In this document: positions 1 to 36,247 of the stretch, one piece after another | Numbering within the stretch: the stretch's first letter is position 1 | How the letters are laid out: each line of letters begins with the position of its first letter | Assembly: GCA_963715195.1 (NCBI GenBank) | Contig: CAVQRT010000016.1 | Location: 1 to 39,743, forward strand | Source: Thermodesulfovibrionales bacterium | Lineage (GTDB): Bacteria; Nitrospirota; Thermodesulfovibrionia; Thermodesulfovibrionales; SM23-35 | Direction of reading: 5' to 3' | DNA length: 39,743 bases | Made by a program: the position numbers and the translations under genes | Notes under the pieces: model-generated | The model's database searches: none | Seen by the model: only the letters and a program-made list of their open reading frames with translations | What the model was told of the DNA's origin: nothing

Positions 1-981
1 GAAGCTAAGCGTCTGGTAGATATTGAGAAAATCTGAGGACTTTATAGGGGGAACCCGAAGTTACGCACTTAAAGTACTGAAAATTTATTCCTTACTTACA
101 GGTATTGGAATTATTTTGTTACTACTTATGGGAGTAGATGGATTTCAAGCTATCGTGCATACCCTTGCAGCAGTGTCCACTGGTGGATTCTCAAGTTATG
201 ATAACAGCCTTTTGGGTTTAGGATCATGGGCACCACAAGTCGCTGTTTCCATCATATCGCTCACTGGTGCGCTATCATTCATTCTCTTTCTATCGAACTT
301 ATAGGAAAGGCTGGAAAACATTTTGGAAGGATCTTGAGGTTAGAGCACTGTTCATCTCGGTGCTCATAGTAATGTTATTCCTCTTCTTACTCATGAGGTT
401 CAAGATGGGAATTCCCTTGCTGGAATCACTTCGAAATGCTCCTCTCCTGGCTTTATCAGCCCAAACAACCACGGGTTCTCAGTCCTTTAAATGTGCCAGG
501 GCTTGATCCTGCGGCAAAGCTGATCTTAGCAGTTTCAATGATAGTAGGCGGATGTATAGGCTCCACTGCCGGTGGCTTTAAGATATTCCGTTTGCTCATA
601 CTCATAAAGGTTATGAAGCTGGCTCTTGTTCGAACAAGCCAACCAGAACATGCGGTAATGGAACCGAAGCTTTCAGGACAGAAGATCGGAAATGAGGAAA
701 TACAAAGAGCCATGTTATTAATATTGTTATTTATTCTTATAGTTATAGCGTCTTGGATACCTTTTATCATTATGGGTTATGAACCAATAGATTCATTATT
801 TGAGGTTGTATCAGCAGTCGGTACTGTCGGTCTCTCATCAGGCATTACAAGCTCCGATCTTCCTGCATTGCTCAAGGGCATCCTGTGTGCAGATATGTTA
901 ATGGGAAGACTTGAAATAATTGCACTTTTGATAATACTATACCCGAGAACATGGTTCGGGAGGAGGGTTAAATCGACATGA
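1..981 (+). CDS. trkH: TrkH-family potassium uptake membrane protein, 5' end outside the window, split by two apparent single-base frameshifts (~290 and ~480)
   Basis: Three consecutive ORF pieces carry TrkH pore motifs: VSTGGFS, SAQTTTG(FS), GGCIGSTAGGFK, SAVGTVGLSSG and MGRLE. Stop overlaps the trkA start (ATGA). Confidence 0.9.
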
Positions 982-1740: not shown

Positions 1741-2649
1741 ATGGAAGACTTCATAACCAAATCATTTTCTGATCCTATAGTGCAAAAAATTTTTATTGCT
1801 CTCATTGGCATAATAGTTATAAATGTTATATTCCGCTTACTCAAGAGATATCTCGGTCGTCAAATAAAGGATACAAATAACCGTTACCGGATACGAAAAT
1901 TCATCTCATTCATTGGATATCTTATCGTAATCTTATTTGTCCTCACTACCTTTAGAGCACATTTGAAAGATATCCATATAGCTGTCGGCATAGCAGGTGC
2001 CGGCATTGCTTTTTCACTCCAGGAAGTTATTGTCAGTCTCGCAGGATGGATAGCTATTTCATTTGGTAATTTCTATAAAACCGGAGACCGTGTTCAACTG
2101 GGTGGAATCAAGGGAGATGTTATTGACATCGCAATGCTCCGAACTACTCTTATGGAAATCGGGGACTGGATAGGGGGTGATCAGTACAATGGACGTATTG
2201 TGCGTATTGCCAACAGCTTTGTATTTAAAGAACCGGTTTTTAATTATTCAACGGACTTCCCTTTCCTCTGGGATGAAATCACTGTGCCTGTAAAACATGG
2301 AAGCGATTTTCGACTTGCAAAAGATATCTTTCAGCGCATTTTGAATGAAATTACAGGAGATTTTACGAATAATGCACAAAATGCTTGGAAAGAAATGGTA
2401 AGCAAATACCTTATTGAAGCTGAAAGTGTAGAACCTGCAGTTATTATGATTATCAATGATAATTGGTTAGAATTTACCCTCAGATACGTTGTTGATTTTA
2501 AAAAGCGCCGCTTCATAAAAGATAAAATCTTTACCCGCATCCTTGAGGAATTTGAAAAGACTGATGGTCGTGTAGCCATAGCTTCAACAACTTTCCAGCT
2601 TACTGATGCGCCAGCATTCGATGTCAGAATTACTAAGGAGACAAAATGA
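1741..2649 (+). CDS. MscS-family small-conductance mechanosensitive channel
   Basis: GIAGAGIAFSLQE and YKTGDRVQLGGIKGDVIDI motifs; N-terminal TM helices. Confidence 0.9.
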   Translation: MEDFITKSFSDPIVQKIFIALIGIIVINVIFRLLKRYLGRQIKDTNNRYRIRKFISFIGYLIVILFVLTTFRAHLKDIHIAVGIAGAGIAFSLQEVIVSLAGWIAISFGNFYKTGDRVQLGGIKGDVIDIAMLRTTLMEIGDWIGGDQYNGRIVRIANSFVFKEPVFNYSTDFPFLWDEITVPVKHGSDFRLAKDIFQRILNEITGDFTNNAQNAWKEMVSKYLIEAESVEPAVIMIINDNWLEFTLRYVVDFKKRRFIKDKIFTRILEEFEKTDGRVAIASTTFQLTDAPAFDVRITKETK

Positions 2650-3730
2650 AGGGGCTTTTCCCTGATATTCAAGCTCTATTTGGGCTATAGGCATATTAGC
2701 GGGAGCTGTAATTATAGGATTAGCCCTACACTACATCTTTTTTCAAATTGTTACACGTCTAATCAAGCACACTTCTGTTAATCTGTACGAAGCATTACAT
2801 AAGCAGAGTCAAAGACCTTCACGTGTTATTTTTTTACTCATAGCCATTTATTTTTCTCTCACTTTTACTGAAATCTATCCGAAAGTTAGCGATATCATTG
2901 ATAAAGTTTTTGTCGTTTTTTTGATCAGCTCGATAGCATGGTTTATTATAAAGCTAACGGCTGTGCTCGAGAACCTCATTCTCAGCAAATATGAAGTTGA
3001 TGAAAAAGACAATCTGCAAGCAAGAAAGATATATACCCAAGTTAGAATCATACGAAAAATACTCGTTGTCATTATCATAATAGTCGCCTTATCAGCTATT
3101 CTCATGAGTTTTAAGCAGTTTCGCCAACTGGGTACAGGTATTTTAGCTTCTGCAGGACTTGCAGGTATCATCATTGGGTTTGCTGCCCAGCGCACCCTTT
3201 CAAATCTTCTGGCTGGAATCCAGATAGCTATAACACAACCCATACGCATTGATGATGTAGTAATAGTAGAAAATGAATGGGGGAAAATCGAAGAAATAAC
3301 ATTAACGTATGTAGTCGTTAAGATATGGGATTTACGCCGGCTGATATTACCAATTAGTTATTTTATTGAAAAGCCATTTCAGAACTGGACAAGGGTCTCA
3401 GCGGACCTGTTAGGGACTGTTTACTTATATGTTGATTATTCCGTGCCAGTTGAAGAGATACGGAAAGAATTGCATCATATTTTACAGAACGCTCAATGGG
3501 ATGGACTTGTCTGGGGGCTACAGGTAACCGATACAACAGACAAAACAATGCAACTTCGTGCCCTTATGAGTGCACCAGATGCCTCGAGTGCATGGAATTT
3601 ACGTTGTGAAGTGAGAGAAAAACTCGTTGAGTTCATTCAACAGAAATATCCGAATGCTCTACCAAAATTACGAGCAGAAATACAAGAAAATGATCCCCTA
3701 AAACCAGCTTCTGGTGAAGTCCAAAAGTAG
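2646..3730 (+). CDS. Second MscS-family channel; probable start ATG 2646 with an apparent frameshift near 2665-2680
   Basis: SAGLAGIIIGFAAQRTLSNLLAG and PIRIDDVVIVENEWGKIEEI. The frame stays open and hydrophobic back to ~2666 (IWAIGILAGAVIIGLALH), and ATG 2646 overlaps the previous stop. Confidence 0.85.
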
Positions 3731-3802
3731 TACCGACTGGGAGATCGGATTTCAAACGGCAATCCGTAGGAAGCAGCATTTTTTGAAGTGCGCAGTACTA
3801 TG

Positions 3803-4524
3803 GTATGCCGTGTAAAACGTATGACTTGTTGGTTCAAGTCCGACGGCTGGAATTTGGTAGTTCGCCCGCATAGCTTGAGGGAGGTGTGAAGGGTAACCTG
3901 AAGCACTAAGTTTCCTGACAAAGGCTCCGAAAGGGAGTTGAGCAAACCTGCGGGTCGCAGCGAGTAGCGAACTCAGGTGTAGCCTCGAAATGCACAATGG
4001 AGTTGTCGACCCTCTCATAGACAGGGGAAGACCGACGCATCTATCCTAACAAAAACTACCGTAACCGATAGATGGGCTCCCGGGGTAACAGGGGTGACAC
4101 GCAGGGGAAGCCATACGACAATGAACACGGGAGACCCTTATGGATGTCCCGATACTATTGGGACAACTGGTGGATATAAGGGAACGAAATTCCACTGGGT
4201 CTATAAGGGAGTCGGAGTTGCCCATACTACCGTTTGGATCTCAAAGACAACATAACTGTGAGAGAGGGAAGGGGCAATACCTTCATCGCGTTTCCGAAGG
4301 AGAGAAGGAAATGGAGATTGCGGTAACGCTATAAACTCCTGACTATTCCGGGAACTTCGGAGGAGACTATACCAGAGAGCCAAGCAGAGGAGAATTGTGA
4401 AAGCCTCTGGAAGAAGATGATTGGAAAGCCGTGTGCCCGAAAAGGGCACGCACGGTTTGATGTGGCAGGGGATGGAGAAGTGCTATGGATTATACTGTAG
4501 TAACTCGCCATTCCTTGACCCTAC
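3803..4524 (+). mobile_element. ORF-less (non-autonomous) group II intron, copy 1, 722 nt
   Basis: 5' GTATG. Domain V GAAAGCCGTGTGCCCGAAAAGGGCACGCACGGTTTG (~4424-4459) with AGC triad. Domain VI ends GACCCTAC with a bulged A. EBS1 loop CATAG (4016-4020) is complementary to the 5' exon CTATG (3798-3802). Domain IV holds only an IEP remnant. Confidence 0.92.
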
Positions 4525-4749
4525 TGGACTACGGTACTCCGCGGTGACTCCGTGATATATTGTTCAGAAGTATGCTCGCCCTTCAAAGACTCTCTGGGAC
4601 TTGTATTAGCAATATCAGTAAGCGGATGAATGTCTCAGGAATTCTGCATCTTCCTCCGGGATTGAAGGGTTAATGTTGATGCCTGAACCGATCTCGAAGC
4701 CGGCGCGCGTCATGAGTCGCGGCAATATCTGCAAGTACCAGTGCAATTG

Positions 4750-6108
4750 GAGTGTCAAGATTTTTTCGCACATTTTGTGTGGTGTCCTCGATCTGGCTTC
4801 CATTACGCTGCTGCTAGTTCCCTGAGTTGCTCGTCTATCCGGTCCATCTTCAAATACTGTTTGATACCCCACCTTGTTCCTGCAATGTGCCTGAGTCTGG
4901 CTGCAACAAGCATAAGTGCCGAGTTACCGTCCGGGAAACAACCAACTACCCGAGTACGCCGGCGGATCTCCCTCATAATCCGTTCGAGAGGATTATTGGT
5001 ACGGATACGGAGCCAGTGTTCGCTGGGAAACTCATAATACCGTAATGTCTCCTCGATTCCATCACGAACGATCTCAGCTGCTTTACCCAGTTTCATCTCC
5101 TCAAGCTTCTTAACAACCATCGTCGCCTTCTTCAAAGCCTCCTTCCGATCTTCCTGGGCATGTATTGCCTTCAGCATCGCTACAACTGCTTTCACTTTTC
5201 CCTTCGGTACCACGGTAAAAACATTACGGTAAAAGTGCACCATGCACCGCTGCCATGAGGCCTCAGGATAGAACTCGCCCAATGCCTCTATAAGCCCAAG
5301 ACACTTGTCCGTGATAAAAAGCCTGGCGCCACTGAGCCCGCGCTCCTTGAGATATCTCAAAAAGGCTACCCAACTCGCCTTGTCCTCCTTCGCCCCTTCT
5401 GCTACCCCAAGAATATCACGATACCCGCCCTCATCAACTCCCACGGCCACCAGTACCGCAACAGTCTTTACCTCTCCTCCCCAACTGCGCTTCAGTGCTA
5501 TACCGTCAAGATAGACGTACGGATGACTTCCCTCTATGGGCTTCTTCCTCCACGTCTCAATAGTTTTATAGATCTTGGCATTCAGGTCAGATACGGTACC
5601 CGGACTTACTCTCGTACCCCATAATGCCTCTGTGATATCTTCAACCCTTCTGACTGATACTCCAGCCAGATACATCTGCACCAGCGCTTCTTCTACCGAT
5701 ATCTCCCTGCGCCGATATCGCTCGATCACCGCTGTCTCAAAAGGCAAGTTCCTCAGTTTCGGTACCTTCAGCGTCACCTCTCCAGAACTCGTTTGCAATC
5801 CCCTTGTGTAATGCCCAGCCCTTGTGTCTTTCCGTTGCGGCGTTCGTTCATATCTTTTTGCATTACAAAGCCTGTCAGCTTCTTCACGTAAAAGGGTATT
5901 GAGGGTCTCCTCCACCGCACTCCTCACTACTTCCCCCACATGTGACCTTACTTGCTCTTCGTCAATTTTGATAATCCTTCCCTTTTTTGGTGTACAATGC
6001 GTCTGAGCCATGGTGTGCCTCCTCTGGTTTTTTTGTTTCTGGCGAAACTACATTACCAGATTCAGAGGACACCATGACTCAATTGTGCGAAAAATATCGT
6101 ACGTTATC
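4750..6108 (-). mobile_element. IS256-family insertion sequence, 1359 bp, 6-bp target duplication CAATTG
   Basis: Imperfect terminal IRs (GAGTGTCAAGATTTTTTCGCACA vs GATAACGTACGATATTTTTCGCACA). CAATTG at 4744-4749 and 6109-6114; removing the IS plus one copy restores the galT frame. Confidence 0.92.
4803..6011 (-). CDS. IS256-family (Mutator-like) DDE transposase
   Basis: YVYLDG, FITD, WQRCMVHFYRN and RTNNPLERIMREIRRRTR motifs; 402 aa, intact. Confidence 0.95.
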   Translation of the reverse strand: MAQTHCTPKKGRIIKIDEEQVRSHVGEVVRSAVEETLNTLLREEADRLCNAKRYERTPQRKDTRAGHYTRGLQTSSGEVTLKVPKLRNLPFETAVIERYRRREISVEEALVQMYLAGVSVRRVEDITEALWGTRVSPGTVSDLNAKIYKTIETWRKKPIEGSHPYVYLDGIALKRSWGGEVKTVAVLVAVGVDEGGYRDILGVAEGAKEDKASWVAFLRYLKERGLSGARLFITDKCLGLIEALGEFYPEASWQRCMVHFYRNVFTVVPKGKVKAVVAMLKAIHAQEDRKEALKKATMVVKKLEEMKLGKAAEIVRDGIEETLRYYEFPSEHWLRIRTNNPLERIMREIRRRTRVVGCFPDGNSALMLVAARLRHIAGTRWGIKQYLKMDRIDEQLRELAAA

Positions 6109-7180
6109 CAATTGAGGTTCATTCGCCCTGTAACGCACTGACGTATTGATCACGTAGTTATAATCAGGGTCTCCGAGTTTTTGATAATATTTTGCGAGCG
6201 TATCCCTTAGGATGCTGGTCAGATCTCCTTTCTCAGCATCCGATATGTTTCCGAAATCCGCTTTATGTATCTTGGGCATGATCCAAACTTCAAAGGGCAC
6301 CTCAGCTGCATAAGGCACAAATGCTGCAAATGAGTCATTTTCGGATACAATGCGCTGAACATGATTTAGCTCATATGCAAGCACATCACAGAAAATACAC
6401 TTCCCCCATTCATCGAAATAGTGCTGCGCTTCCTCTTCGCGCCATCGTATGTGATGGGGCACCATTCCGGTTGCAATGATTTGTGAGTGAGGATGAACAA
6501 GTGAAGTACCGGCACGGAGACCGTGATTTCTAAATATGATAATCATCATGTTCTCATCCTGTTTCATGAGATCGACGTATCTCCTATGATAGGTCTCAAT
6601 CACAAACCCAATTTCATCGGCTGCCATGATGCCCAGTTGCCGATTGTGGAAAGGAGTTTCAATAACTACCTCATGATGTCCGTAACCCTGTATTGCAAGG
6701 TAAATACCCCTGGTGACCCGCTCCAGACTGCCCTGCGGTGTAAGAGCCGGGTACTTGTTCGGAACGACCTTTGTCTTCCATTCACCCTTAGTGTCCCTTA
6801 TTTCCATGATTACCGACGGCAACTTATGTTCATTTCCCTTGCAAAATGGGCAGTTATTATCATGTGCCGGTACGTCTGATTTGCTTGCACGCATGTGAAA
6901 GTCCTTGGGTCTCTTTTTTCTCGCAGGTGAATAGATTACCCATTGCTTTGTTATCTTGTTCTGTCGAATATCACTTATTTCCATATACACCCTCCCTGAT
7001 GTTTCATAATTGTCAGCACTTTAAAGTTTTATGTGAACTGCTTATCTATATGAGAATTAGAAGGTTATCATTTCAGAAAGAAGAACTGACCATACATAAG
7101 GATAAAATAATTTATTACAGATGTCCGTTTCAAGATAGATTAAACAGAAGATGACGCTTTCAGTTTTGCGTATTTCTATG

Positions 7181-7900
7181 GTATGCCGTGTAAAACGTAT
7201 GACTTGTCGGTTAAAGTCCGACCGTGGGAATTTGGTAGTTCGCCCACGTAGCTTGAGGGAGGTGTAAAGGGTAACCTGAAGCATTAAGTTTCCTGACAAA
7301 GGCTCCGAAAGGGAGTTGAGCAAACCTGCGGGTCGCAGCGAAAGCGAACCTAGATGTAGCCTCGAAATGCACAATGGAGTTGTCGACCCTCTCATACAAA
7401 GGGGAAGACCGAAGCATCTATCCTAACAAAAACTACCGTAACCGATAGATGGACTCCCGGGGTAACAGGGGTGACACGCAGGGGAAGCCATACGACAATG
7501 AACACGGGAGACCCTTATGGATGTCCCGATACTATCGGGACAACTGGTGGATATAAGGAAACGAAATTCCACTGGGTCTATAAGGGAGTCGGAGTTGCCC
7601 ATAGTACCGCTTGTATCTCAAAGACAACATAACTTTGAGAGAGGGAAGGGGCAATACCTTCATCATGTTTCCGAAGGAGAGAAGGAAAGGAGATTGCGGT
7701 AACGCTATAAACTCCTGACTATTCCGGGAACTTCGGAGGAGACTATACCAGAGAGCCAAGCAGAAGAAAATTGTGAAAGCCTCTGGAAGAAGATGATTGG
7801 AAAGCCGTGTGCCCGAAAACGGCACGCACGGTTTGATGTGGCAGGGGATGGAGAAGTGCTATGGATTATACTGTAGTAACTCGCCATTCCTTGACCCTAC
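7181..7900 (+). mobile_element. ORF-less group II intron, copy 2, 720 nt
   Basis: About 95% identical by eye to 3803-4524, with the same GTATG...GACCCTAC ends and domains V/VI. EBS1 loop variant CATACAA (7393-7399). Confidence 0.92.
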
Positions 7901-8105
7901 TGAAATGTGCTACTCGATAATGACTCATTGGTGCGTTGACTCCAGAAAGAACTGATGGAATATCACAGAAAAGATGAAGGAAATTTCATTTGCTCTTCAT
8001 GCTTTTTTTTTATAAATTATACGAAGGATAAATTCTAGATTTCGGAGGAGATAGATATGAAGAAATTCGTTAGCCTTATGTTACTTGTTTTAAGGGAGGC
8101 TTAGA

Positions 8106-10122: not shown

Positions 10123-10901
10123 TGGCTTCACCTCAGCGTAAAGGCGCCCCTTATTTATTCCTCTTCGAACTGTTTGGATACTGATAGAAATTTGCTTTTC
10201 CCGTATGGGAAAGAATAACACGTGAGGAGCAAATTCACAATGAGCCCATCCTTTTGCACTCCGCACACCGATATCACTTCACGACCTTGGAAATTTTCTG
10301 ATTGCGCAAGAAATTAGCAGTCTACCAGATCTTGAATTTTATTGAGTACTATGTGTATCTATGGCTGTCAATGACCATCTCGATGGCCTTGAGTATAGGA
10401 AGAAGGGTTGCCTCTCATAAGCCCGGGAAAGCTTTTTGTCTCTTTCACACCGAAGGTAGCATGCCTTTATTCTCAAAAATATAGAAGAAATATGCATAAG
10501 CAATAATTTTTGAGATTGTTGATTTCCTTTTATAGTATGAATATTCATTTCGCATAACCGTGTATATTTGGGTTATCTATAAGGCAAGTCTTGATCTCAT
10601 TGGAATATTTGTTCATCATTCTGTGGCATTTTGAGAAATTGGAGTTCATGAGGATTATTGTGACTTAATATAAACCAGCACAAGATCTTCCAAATTTCCT
10701 CCCAAATACTTGTCATTACTCCTTTTTGCATTTTTGACATTAAAAAGACCGATTGCTACGATACAACTGTAAATTTATTGATTCTCTCGTATAGAAAGGT
10801 CAGACTGTCAAAGTCTTTTTTTCTTTGGGAGTTTGACTTTATTATTTTTTGAAAACAGGAGAGCCAGACATTAATGGACATTGGGAAGAAAGGAGGAGAA
10901 T

Positions 10902-13542: not shown

Positions 13543-13897
13543 TCTCTTACCCTGACAACTCGTTTCTTTTAGAATCTAGCCTGTATTCAGGATGCTTATT
13601 GATTGCCAATCAAAAACTGCACAATTATATCAAATTTCACAAATGCCAGTATTTAAAGCATTCTATACCGAGTGTTTCCGAGTTTAAGCCTTGAAGATGC
13701 AAGAAGCTCAGAGGTGCATATTGGAATTGGAAATCGACAGTGTGCAATAGTTTTAATGATCAGGACTACTATGTGCAGTCCTCGAAAACGCCATGTTTCC
13801 TGCGGGGTGAAAGACGCCCCGCTGAAATGTTCAATGAACAGTGCATAATAAAGAGTAGAGTAAACTTTAAATCTTTGGTACGTCTGTAAAATAAAAA

Positions 13898-19464: not shown

Positions 19465-19630
19465 GTTCTTCCTCAAGCAGAGATTTTTAAACTTAACATT
19501 TCGGTAGCAGATTACTTTTGAAAATTAATACCCTTACACCGATAGTTGGCAAAAATATTTTCAAAAGTGCAATATTACCTATAAAAGAAGCAAGAATCTT
19601 ATATTATTCTGATATGTAAATCGCTATAAT
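19465..19630. repeat. Diverged intergenic repeat, copy A (partner 21432-21600)
   Basis: Ungapped similarity at offset 1967: GTTCTTCCT, CAGATTACTT, ACCCTTACACC, TTGGCAAAAATATTTTC. Confidence 0.85.
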
Positions 19631-19636
19631 TATATA

Positions 19637-19775
19637 TAGATACCCACGGGCAAGCCCGTGGTACTTTAACGGAGTACAAGCTTCGCTTGACCGGCTCCGC
19701 CGGAAAGCCTCCGCTTCGCTCCGGGACGCATTCACCCACGGGTAAACACCGTGGAACTCTGCGGTGGATTAGATA
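19637..19775. mobile_element. Non-autonomous palindrome-ended mini-element (IS200/IS605 or REP-like)
   Basis: GC-rich island in AT-rich DNA; related hairpins CCACGGGCAAGCCCGTGG (19644-19661) and CCACGGGTAAACACCGTGG (19736-19754); TAGATA at both edges. Confidence 0.65.
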
Positions 19776-21253: not shown

Positions 21254-21431
21254 ATTCTATAGCGAATTGTCAGAGTGAGTGCATTCCCTTTTGATATGTC
21301 GGTTATAAACCGTAATATTTGATACTGCAACTTATCTGACACTGAGGACTTGTAGGTGTCGTCGAGAAAAATGGTATGTTGCCTTCGGGATAAAAGACGC
21401 ACGATCCTGCATTAAGGCCATTATGGCAAAT

Positions 21432-21600
21432 GTTCTTCCTGAAAGTGAGATTTCCACAATAAGCTTTCCAGCAACAGATTACTTCTGAAAATCAACACCC
21501 TTACACCAACAATTGGCAAAAATATTTTCCGAAGAGCAATATGACCAAGAAAAAAAGCAATAATCGCATAGACATTCTATTGATTTCCGACAATAATATA
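21432..21600. repeat. Diverged intergenic repeat, copy B (partner 19465-19630)
   Basis: Same conserved blocks as copy A, at offset 1967. Confidence 0.85.
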
Positions 21601-26714: not shown

Positions 26715-26796
26715 AGACTCTAAAAACTATCAAACCAGCAGTTCGTCTTTTTCGCATTTGAGAGGCTTATTTTTATTGATTTTCATTTGAACGTCT
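26715..26796. repeat. 82-bp diverged intergenic repeat, copy A (partner 36166-36247)
   Basis: Ungapped match including ATCAAACCAGCA and ATTTTCATTTGAA. Confidence 0.75.
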
Positions 26797-27098
26797 CACA
26801 TCAGTTAAAGTAGCCGCTGTGTTTCTTTGATGAAGACATCTTTCATGTTTGTTTCCAAAGATAGTCTTGATTGGTCAAAAATGAAGTTGCCTGTGCATGT
26901 TTGAATAGGAAATAAACGATGTCGAAAAAATCCAGCGATACACATTTCTATGTGAAGGTCCTTAGAAGAGCAAACATAGTCCGCATAAATATTTTTTCCC
27001 ATATAGAACAAGCAAAGGCGTTCAGGAATCCAATAATAAACTTGACCCCGCAGCCTATTTATATTAAACTTTACTATTAATTAAACAGGTTTAATTTA

Positions 27099-36033: not shown

Positions 36034-36158
36034 TTTAACGCATAGACTTTCTTCCTATAATCATTAATTCCTTCAATCAGCTAAACATGTTTGTGATTTA
36101 ACGCATAGACTTTCTTCCTATAATCATTAATTCCTTCAATCAGCTAAACATGTTTGTG
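36034..36158. repeat. Perfect tandem duplication of 62 bp (period 63)
   Basis: 36034-36095 is identical to 36097-36158. Confidence 0.95.
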
Positions 36159-36165
36159 GTCTCTG

Positions 36166-36247
36166 AGACCCTGAAAAACATCAAACCAGCATTCCATGTT
36201 TTTCACATTTAAATGATCCTTTCTTATTCATTTTCATTTGAAAGTCT
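36166..36247. repeat. 82-bp diverged intergenic repeat, copy B (partner 26715-26796)
   Basis: Ungapped match to copy A. Confidence 0.75.

What the first reader, a model, noticed from the sequence alone, without database searches (positions are those of the whole stretch)
3776..4580. Both introns sit in the loop of the same kind of cryptic structured element (TGCG-N5-CTATG^TG-N8-TACTC-N5-TGACTC)
Seen: removing each intron gives site 1 GTGCGCAGTACTATG^TGGACTACGGTACTCCGCGGTGACTCCGTG and site 2 TTGCGTATTTCTATG^TGAAATGTGCTACTCGATAATGACTCATTG. Four blocks are conserved at identical spacing. The variable positions form a stem closing a TATGT loop in both (GCGTATTTC/GAAATGTGC in site 2; an imperfect GTGCGCAGTAC/GGACTACGGTAC in site 1). 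A second small hairpin carries TGACT in its loop, and an outer stem closes the unit (AGCATTTTTTGAA/TTCAGAAGTATGCT; TCAGTTTT/AGAACTGA). Established: EBS/IBS pairing explains only CTATG and perhaps TGCG, and IEP contacts usually reach roughly +10 into the 3' exon; IIC introns are known to target terminators or attC hairpins. Inference: conservation out to +26 points to an unrecognised repeated host RNA/ssDNA element used as a landing pad, possibly one that only folds after splicing.
Basis: partly seen in the sequence, partly recalled or inferred. Interest (0 to 1): 0.85.

Follow-up and report, generated by a model that had tools for sequence, protein, structure and literature searches.

The report
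Introns homing to cassette junction sites
Two self-splicing introns have landed in the same spot of a repeated DNA join that separates small swappable gene units in this bacterial family; the join is real but is not a folded RNA, and it may belong to an undescribed gene-shuffling system.

Summary
The two ORF-less group II introns (3803-4524, 7181-7900) and the quoted joined flanks are real. The landing pad is real too, but larger and not folded. It is a fixed-spacing DNA junction: a 45-bp upstream module, a 7-bp core CTATGTG and a 47-bp downstream module. About 40 intron-free copies lie in this genome, none of 45 inside a long ORF, and 35 of 56 same-family genomes carry it. Shared sequence between loci switches at the core, so it is an exchange point between gene-carrying units. 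TACTC and TGACTC are degenerate parts of the downstream module. The proposed hairpins show no folding or covariation signal. EBS1 reads five core bases and EBS3 the next; sister introns with other EBS1 loops sit in sister cores (GTAGGTG, CTGTGAG). The enzyme is not shown. The best candidate is the IntI-like tyrosine recombinase of IS91-family elements, whose ends sit at the same edge; this genome keeps only remnants. The scan earlier noted a similar intron-in-junction case on other DNA (e1-7455534, not checked here).

The parts
3753..3759 (+). Upstream repeat of the junction site (7-bp core position at -45, CAAACGG, with the arm pattern around it)
   Evidence: Arm pattern TG-n5-T-n-[n6 G]-n-A peaks at -45 over 114 junctions (3.48 of 5 against about 1.2); window sequence
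3760..3802 (+). Site 1: upstream module U and first five core bases CTATG (IBS1)
   Evidence: Model R1 hit 3748-3802, E 5.6e-5; distal part ranks 19 of 4144 CTATG sites with a model built without this genome
3803..4524 (+). ORF-less group II intron, copy 1 (722 nt; GTATG...CCTAC)
   Evidence: Rfam RF02003 and RF00029; boundaries; no long ORF
4016..4020 (+). EBS1 (CATAG), pairs with CTATG
   Evidence: Columns 4016-4020 pair with exon -1 to -5 in 92-97% of 36 introns, four pair types each
4088..4088 (+). EBS3 (A), pairs with the +1 T
   Evidence: 92% paired in 25 introns, three pair types
4424..4524 (+). Domains V and VI of copy 1
   Evidence: RF00029 43.7 bits
4525..4570 (+).
   Evidence: D profile 5.6 bits, p 2.5e-4; first 28 nt 11.7 bits, p 5e-5; 20 of 28 identical to intron-free L328 and L157; same stretch found intron-free behind a different upstream sequence in run X1
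4525..7180 (-). The unit between the two introns: one cassette, D - galT (opposite strand, split by IS256) - U
   Evidence: galT TIGR00209 129.9 bits, IS256 transposase NF033543; layout matches the general one
4750..6108 (-). IS256-family insertion in galT, flanked by CAATTG on both sides
   Evidence: IS-free allele in a contig of run X1
7131..7180 (+). Site 2: upstream repeat (7131-7137), module U and CTATG
   Evidence: R1 hit 7120-7180, E 0.009; distal part ranks 32 of 4144
7181..7900 (+). ORF-less group II intron, copy 2 (720 nt); EBS1 CATAC at 7393-7397 has one mismatch to its IBS1 and one domain V pair is broken
7901..7949 (+). TG and downstream module D of site 2, ending in a second core CAGAAAG (7943-7949)
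   Evidence: D profile 21.5 bits, above all 20000 random 40-mers; 35 of 47 identical to intron-free L328 and L184
10300..10355 (+). Intron-free junction, core CTATGTG at 10349-10355
   Evidence: R1 E 0.0055
13711..13775 (+). Intron-free junction, core at 13769-13775
   Evidence: R1 E 1.2e-10, a training copy; first found
21352..21358 (+). Intron-free junction with the sister core GTAGGTG
   Evidence: 5th of 505 candidate cores by the profile of sister-intron sites
26891..26954 (+). Intron-free junction, core at 26948-26954
   Evidence: R1 E 4.7e-13, a training copy; same upstream module with a different downstream sequence in L327

Best explanation
The introns sit in the core of a double-stranded DNA recombination junction, not in a folded element. 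Shown: the site has the form TG-n5-T-n-[7-bp core ending in G]-n-A and recurs at 45-47-bp spacing. Units of DNA, from 45-165 bp of non-coding sequence to one or several accessory genes usually on the opposite strand, are joined at these cores, and shared sequence between loci switches there. Shown: this intron lineage inserts after the fifth core base, reading those five bases with EBS1 and the sixth with EBS3; the window copies are an EBS1 variant for CTATGTG, most sisters read GTAGGTG. Inferred: the junctions are attI-like sites cut at the G|nA edge by a tyrosine recombinase acting in trans, most likely the IntI-like integrase carried by IS91-family elements, whose hairpin right ends would be the attC-like partner. 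Inferred: the ORF-less introns move with a sister intron's protein and use the junctions as many-copy intergenic safe sites; insertion splits the core and probably blocks that junction, while the two 96%-identical copies could excise the galT unit by homologous recombination. My odds: junction of exchangeable units 0.9; tyrosine recombinase 0.7; this particular integrase 0.5.
For: Copies: 48 model hits in the genome, 45 against 0 in shuffled and reversed genomes, 35 of 56 same-family genomes, 29 metagenome loci. Position: 0 of 45 inside ORFs of 150 aa or more, which cover 79% of the genome; neighbours co-oriented 20 to 3; nearest upstream ORF on the opposite strand in 83 of 109. Breakpoints: 9 of 11 listed pairs share only one side and switch at the core; L308 and L321 are identical for 600 bp plus U and D and diverge right after the second core; run X1 holds window 4525-4749 intron-free behind another upstream sequence ending CTATG. 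Arm pattern at -45, -46 and +47. Introns: of 48 distinct 5' junctions 23 are GTAGG, 3 CTATG, 3 CTGTG; EBS1 and EBS3 covary; 15 of 22 GTAGG sites keep distal similarity above the 99th percentile of 1851 genomic GTAGG; contigs of two studies show this intron followed by a standard D module. Candidate enzyme: 22 distinct left flanks of integrase-plus-IS91 elements carry 3.64 of 5 arm letters against 1.1-1.6 at shifted registers; their right ends are mostly hairpins (z -2 to -4.8 in most rows) followed by junction modules; the integrase scores 222 bits on NF040815 and its best solved relative is IntI4; IS91 transposase in 15 of 35 junction-positive against 3 of 21 negative genomes (Fisher p 0.039; kin not independent).
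Against: No recombinase or transposase recurs within 3 kb of the junctions: tyrosine-recombinase hits beside only 3 of 114 junctions, none in 29 metagenome loci. The U model finds 1 of 30 integrase loci and nothing better than E 0.02 in 37 IS91 and serine-recombinase loci. This genome has no IS91 transposase hit and no close copy of the candidate integrase, only a left-end remnant and hairpins. The integrase lacks about 40 residues of the IntI insertion, which PMC8138268 (passages) calls essential for integron function. Five of the 22 element flanks read G-TT, not G-nA, and one looks like chance. The breakpoint pairs are not independent (three share one locus set), and in BLAST two of them run 43-55 bp into U because U copies resemble each other. 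The genome is 6.57% contaminated, so some duplicated contigs may be strain mixtures. No recombination, splicing or homing was observed; the one RNA run laid covered only intron-internal pieces.
Confidence: 0.6

Rival explanations
1. The junctions are ends of non-autonomous rolling-circle units moved by an IS91-type HUH transposase: U is an origin end and the G-n-A-n after it is the target tetranucleotide.
For: GAAC is the commonest tetranucleotide from the last core base (19 of 113) and IS91-family targets are GTTC, CTTG, GTCC on the other strand, with no target duplication (PMC13181058, passages). Units end sharply at the core and decay upstream. IS91 transposases occur in 18 of 57 family genomes.
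Against: IS91 ends carry subterminal palindromes (PMC13181058); U and D do not fold. The same arm pattern lies on both sides and constrains the flank left of inserted elements, which a four-base target would not do. No IS91 transposase lies upstream of a U module as its own end.
Confidence: 0.18
2. The junctions are pdif-like sites of the host XerC/XerD or of another resident tyrosine recombinase such as the two-gene module on contig C14.
For: XerC/D-like genes are the only intact simple tyrosine recombinases seen in this genome; some modules have two like ends in opposite orientation; the C14 module is flanked by GATGAAG, one of the core variants.
Against: The single dif-like site (C7:154508) has the 11-6-11 layout and is shared with a genome of another family that lacks U hits; the junction has no such left arm. 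The C14 genes are in pieces.
Confidence: 0.12
3. Large serine recombinase attachment sites left by stacked elements.
For: 45-47-bp spacing fits such sites (own knowledge); earlier scan notes describe such stacks elsewhere.
Against: No PF07508 match in this genome or in junction-rich G215 (complete), G216 and G004; no U hit at 15 such loci; the symmetry centre is odd (7 bp), not a 2-bp core; sites are not at tRNA genes (2 of 22 measured within 300 bp).
Confidence: 0.04
4. One reading: a structured RNA or ssDNA element that folds across the insertion point.
For: Site 2 alone can form 8 pairs around TATGT, and site 1 has a complementary outer pair.
Against: No excess pairing, no covariation, no folding signal, no strand bias; no Rfam match at the flanks.
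Confidence: 0.04
5. The shared letters are only the target consensus of the intron's protein, with no host element behind them.
For: T at -7 (36 of 48), TG at -14/-13 (21 of 48) and G at +2 (24 of 27) recur at intron sites, the range such proteins read (own knowledge).
Against: Similarity extends to -60 and +54 and about 40 copies are intron-free.
Confidence: 0.02

Closest known systems
Group IIC-attC introns, and IIB/class E introns in integron arrays (PMC7923331, passages)
   Same: Group II introns that use the recombination sites of gene-cassette arrays as targets, in the orientation opposite to the cassette genes; proposed there to help form cassettes by recombination between copies.
   Different: There the target is a folded attC bottom strand with IBS1/IBS3 TTGT/T. 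Here the target does not fold, IBS1 is 5 nt, and the lineage is retargeted to several different cores.
Integron attI1 site and attI-type cassettes (PMC12901181, passages)
   Same: Double-stranded site of about 65 bp with upstream direct repeats and a crossover after a conserved G; cassettes bounded by attI-type sites can be excised and inserted by IntI1.
   Different: No GTTRRRY box, G-nA instead of G-TT, dozens of such sites per genome, no adjacent intI gene, cargo genes mostly point away from their site on the opposite strand.
IS91-family rolling-circle elements (PMC13181058, passages), here with an upstream tyrosine recombinase gene
   Same: No target duplication, tetranucleotide G-n-A-n next to the end; such elements are found inserted at these junctions.
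   Different: U and D lack palindromes and carry no transposase; flanks show a longer arm pattern.
dif and pdif sites of XerC/XerD (pdif recalled, not from a call)
   Same: Modules flanked by short asymmetric tyrosine-recombinase sites with a variable spacer, sometimes in opposite orientation.
   Different: The genome's own dif-like site has another layout and sequence.

Membership tests
Group II intron | Domain V/VI and domain I-IV structure | tested here: met
   RF00029 and RF02003 at or above gathering score for both copies
Group II intron | EBS1-IBS1 and EBS3-IBS3 pairing | tested here: met
   Covariation over 36 and 25 introns; copy 2 has one EBS1 mismatch
Group II intron | Own reverse transcriptase/maturase gene | tested here: not met
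   No ORF in the window copies; sisters carry one (L279, TIGR04416 407.6 bits); the sister on C25 has a broken ORF
Group II intron | Splicing or homing activity | not testable with these tools
   The RNA run laid gave no junction-spanning contig
Group II intron ORF class (A-F, CL, ML) | Placement of the protein in a reference tree | not tested
   No reference set was fetched; EBS2 covariation was not found
Group IIC / IIC-attC intron | Stem-loop upstream of a 3-4-nt IBS1 | tested here: not met
   No conserved fold in U or across the site; IBS1 covaries over 5 nt
attC site | RYYYAAC ... GTTRRRY ends | tested here: not met
   Absent from the consensus of U, core and D on either strand, by inspection; no attC finder was run
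attC site | Bottom-strand hairpin | tested here: not met
   Junction folding z about -0.2 and -0.5 on the two strands, 2 of 28 below -2 on each
attI site / integron | Double-stranded site with upstream direct repeats and crossover after G | tested here: inconclusive
   Arm pattern repeats at -45 and breakpoints fall at the core; exact cut and protein binding not shown
attI site / integron | Adjacent intI gene with the IntI insertion | tested here: not met
   No such gene near junctions; candidate scores 195 bits, below the 265 cut-off of TIGR02249, and lacks the insertion
IS91 oriIS/terIS | Subterminal palindromes | tested here: not met
IS91 oriIS/terIS | Target tetranucleotide beside the end | tested here: inconclusive
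   G 108 of 114 and A 87 of 113 at the right places, GAAC only 19 of 113
dif/pdif | XerC arm, 6-bp spacer, XerD arm like the host dif | tested here: not met
   dif-like site found once and differs in layout
Large serine recombinase att site | Cognate recombinase in or near the stack | tested here: not met

The most novel reading that the evidence does not exclude
A cassette-capture system parallel to integrons: an IntI-like tyrosine recombinase that lacks the IntI insertion and travels on IS91-family elements shuffles accessory genes between dozens of unfolded attI-like junctions per genome, cutting at G|nA, with each unit type carrying its own 7-bp core; a group II intron lineage has co-evolved with it by switching EBS1 to follow the different cores.
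Probability: 0.35. Interest if true: 0.85.

Novelty: new variant of a known kind. Interest (0 to 1): 0.62.

Why it matters
Cassette arrays are found today by looking for attC hairpins and intI genes. These junctions have neither, so a family-wide gene-shuffling layer (sensor kinases, transporters, metabolic genes) would be invisible to such searches. The finding gives testable sites, a candidate enzyme and a possible role for the unexplained integrase gene on some IS91-family elements (that its role is open is recalled, not from a call). For intron biology it is a natural case of one lineage retargeting a five-base EBS1 across variants of one host site. The intron habit itself, homing to repeated recombination sites, is known.

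Tried and rejected
Literal motif search: no intron-free copy. Hairpin model: rejected. EBS2 search by covariation: best excess 0.27 with about half paired, not accepted. Integrase with an IPGRKW-type N-terminus beside one junction (L044): only 1 of 30 integrase loci had a U hit; rejected as the partner. Serine recombinases. dif. tRNA-island model: distances. An exact pattern scan of all GTDB genomes gave 1 hit, in Arcicella, and a viral scan 3 hits; none had a D module or the other U features, so I read them as chance. Model R1 hit 0 of 16 other-family genomes and 1 of 150 in a phylum sample, but a looser pattern found a related right-end module with core CTGTGAG in G163 of another family (11 matches against 4 control, 4 sharing the module), so the range is wider than R1 shows; the other four genomes were at control level. 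RNA runs X15-X20 held small shares; X15 gave intron-internal pieces only. Ten paper searches listed no paper whose title or abstract describes these sites; the library lacks most subscription papers. Papers were seen as search passages only (PMC12772301, PMC8138268, PMC13181058, PMC5737581, PMC12584367, PMC7923331, PMC3753933, PMC12901181); no supplements were opened, and figures with IS91 end sequences could not be seen, so the oriIS comparison is limited to the text. Dropped rows: hits with no CTATG anchor (3 of 48, 5), intron-occupied sites, identical duplicates, 7 introns left out of the alignment; only part of the family hits were fetched (74 junctions used).

Full report
Observation. The window holds two group II introns at 3803-4524 and 7181-7900 (Rfam), 95.8% identical and without an ORF. 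The literal motif has no intron-free copy in the genome, and TACTC-N5-TGACTC occurs only at these two places. The left part TGCG-N5-CTATGTG occurs intron-free six times, which led to the wider element. Earlier scan notes call the organism a sediment Nitrospirota bacterium; I did not check that.

The element. An alignment of 29 copies gives a fixed-length upstream module U ending in CTATGTG, with no predicted pairs. A sequence-only model finds 48 copies in the genome, 45 against 0 in shuffled and reversed genomes, and hits 35 of 56 same-family genomes, 0 of 16 other-family genomes and 1 of 150 in a phylum sample. None of 45 sites lies inside an ORF of 150 aa or more, and neighbours within 8 kb are co-oriented 20 to 3. 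With a model built without this genome and without the 14 bases next to the core, the two window sites rank 19 and 32 of 4144 CTATG, and a third, truncated intron on C30 ranks 3.

The downstream blocks. From 114 non-identical intron-free junctions (40 from this genome, 74 from loci of relatives), 23 seeds define a 47-bp module D ending in CAGGAAG. Scored on columns not used to pick the seeds, site 1 gives p 2.5e-4 and site 2 exceeds all 20000 random 40-mers; 16 of 90 non-seeds also pass p 0.01. In an independent metagenome set 10 of 29 loci have D. Both window flanks belong to one D subfamily: 20 of 28 and 35 of 47 identical to intron-free loci. So TACTC and TGACTC are shared variants inside D (exact in 1 and 0 of 142), not invariant blocks. 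Contigs of two studies show this intron followed by a standard D without the blocks.

No structure. D folds like its shuffles and has no strand bias. The stem around TATGT averages 3.75 of 8 pairs against 3.66 +/- 0.11 for re-dealt halves (p 0.21); the ligated window sites have z between -1.71 and +0.19; 28 whole junctions average z -0.2 and -0.5. What exists is a short dyad, T-n-C-TATGT-G-n-A (T 110 of 114, G 108 of 114, A 87 of 113), which happens to give a full stem at site 2.

A junction between units. Of 11 pairs with long similarity, 9 share only one side and switch at the core; the other two are a duplicated and an overlapping pair. These pairs are not all independent, and BLAST extends two of them 43-55 bp into U. 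L308 and L321 are identical through 600 bp, U and D and diverge right after CAGGAAG, so D's far end is also a breakpoint. A contig of run X1 matches window 4525-4749 without a difference, lacks the intron and the IS256, and is joined to a different upstream sequence ending CTATG. The pattern TG-n5-T-n-[n6 G]-n-A recurs at -45 of CTATGTG sites (3.48 of 5 against about 1.2), at -46 of GTAGGTG sites (3.23) and at +47. Each module type ends in its own core, while what follows varies, which puts the exchange near the G|nA edge (inference). The nearest upstream ORF is on the opposite strand in 83 of 109 cases. The stretch between the two introns is one such unit: D, galT on the minus strand split by IS256, U.

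How the introns use it. Over 36 aligned introns, columns 4016-4020 pair with exon positions -1 to -5 in 92-97% of cases and column 4088 with +1 in 92% of 25; nothing comparable appears for -6 to -14. Of 48 distinct 5' junctions, 23 end in GTAGG, 3 in CTATG and 3 in CTGTG. For 22 GTAGG sites, 15 keep distal similarity above the 99th percentile of 1851 genomic GTAGG, and all 13 with a known 3' exon continue TG. More distant introns have unrelated exons. So the lineage lands after the fifth base of these cores, and the window copies are an EBS1 variant. Sisters carry an intact protein (L279, TIGR04416); the sister in this genome has a broken one, possibly from assembly errors (inference). Mobility in trans is inferred. 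The ORF class was not determined.

The enzyme. Nothing recurs beside the junctions. Serine recombinases are absent from this genome and from junction-rich relatives. The dif-like site is single and different. One class of element stands out: IS91-family transposase genes preceded by a tyrosine recombinase (NF033538 and NF040815). Their 22 distinct left flanks carry 3.64 of 5 arm letters, against 1.1-1.6 at shifted registers; 21 have the G. Five read G-TT rather than G-nA. Their right ends are mostly hairpins ending TTATTCG, TTAACCG or TTTAATG and are in several cases followed by U-, D- or GTAGGTG-type modules. The recombinase's best solved relative is IntI4, without about 40 residues of the IntI insertion. 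The transposase is in 15 of 35 junction-positive and 3 of 21 negative genomes (p 0.039; kin are not independent). This genome keeps a left-end remnant at a junction and several hairpins but no intact gene. These elements could also be passengers that favour the sites, as the introns do.

Comparison with what is known. Introns that home to cassette recombination sites are known: IIC-attC, and IIB or class E copies in integron arrays (PMC7923331, passages). attI1 is a 65-bp double-stranded site with direct repeats and a crossover after G, and cassettes bounded by attI-type sites are active (PMC12901181, passages). IS91 ends have palindromes and four-base targets (PMC13181058, passages). The junction works like attI but fails membership in attC, attI with intI, oriIS/terIS and dif. 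Ten searches of the held library listed nothing that describes it. Earlier scan notes report a similar intron-in-junction case and fixed-spacing stacks on other DNA; I did not test them.

Verdict. Observation partly confirmed, interpretation partly supported. The intron behaviour is a known habit; the landing site is an undescribed family of cassette junctions with a candidate enzyme. New variant of a known kind, interest 0.62; 0.85 if it proves a separate cassette system (probability 0.35).

Noticed in passing
L017 (G000:C25:58001-61887) and L018 (G000:C15): Both sister introns in this genome are interrupted in domain V at the same place by a second group II intron with an intact 458-aa protein (TIGR04416 369.6 bits).
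   Followed up: partly
G000:C30:247673: Only the first 20 or so bases of a fifth intron remain at a CTATG junction.
   Followed up: partly
window 4750-6108: IS256-family element in galT with CAATTG on both sides; an IS-free allele exists in run X1.
   Followed up: partly
L010 (G000:C14:78.7-84.0 kb): Two copies of a two-gene tyrosine recombinase module in pieces; the complete copy has terminal inverted repeats starting CTATACGTAAC and GATGAAG on both sides.
   Followed up: partly
L082, L084, L085, L089-L091, L107: Stand-alone integron-like integrases with an extra N-terminal IPGRKW-type domain and their own palindromic flanks; not linked to the junctions.
   Followed up: partly
L282 (G004:C1): Three tyrosine recombinase genes in a row inside a sister intron, probably a RIT element (name recalled).
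   Followed up: no
G000:C11:5209-5380 and C12:6951-7122: A 165-bp unit with no ORF between two cores, an almost empty cassette.
   Followed up: partly
L334-L337 (G163): A different right-end module of over 100 bp ending in CTGTGAG, four copies with unrelated downstream sequence, in another family of the order.
   Followed up: partly
G000:C7:154508-154531: Probable dif site, identical in G215 and G030.
   Followed up: yes
window 36034-36158: Two perfect 62-bp copies 63 bp apart.
   Followed up: no
window 19465-19603 and 21432-21570; 26715-26796 and 36166-36247: Further intergenic repeat pairs of 139 and 82 bp at 76-78% identity, possibly more module types.
   Followed up: no
window 19625-19770: Two short GC-rich palindromes of the same kind in an intergenic stretch.
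   Followed up: no
window 23-981 and 2646-3730: Transporter-like genes appear split or shortened by frame breaks; possibly assembly errors.
   Followed up: no
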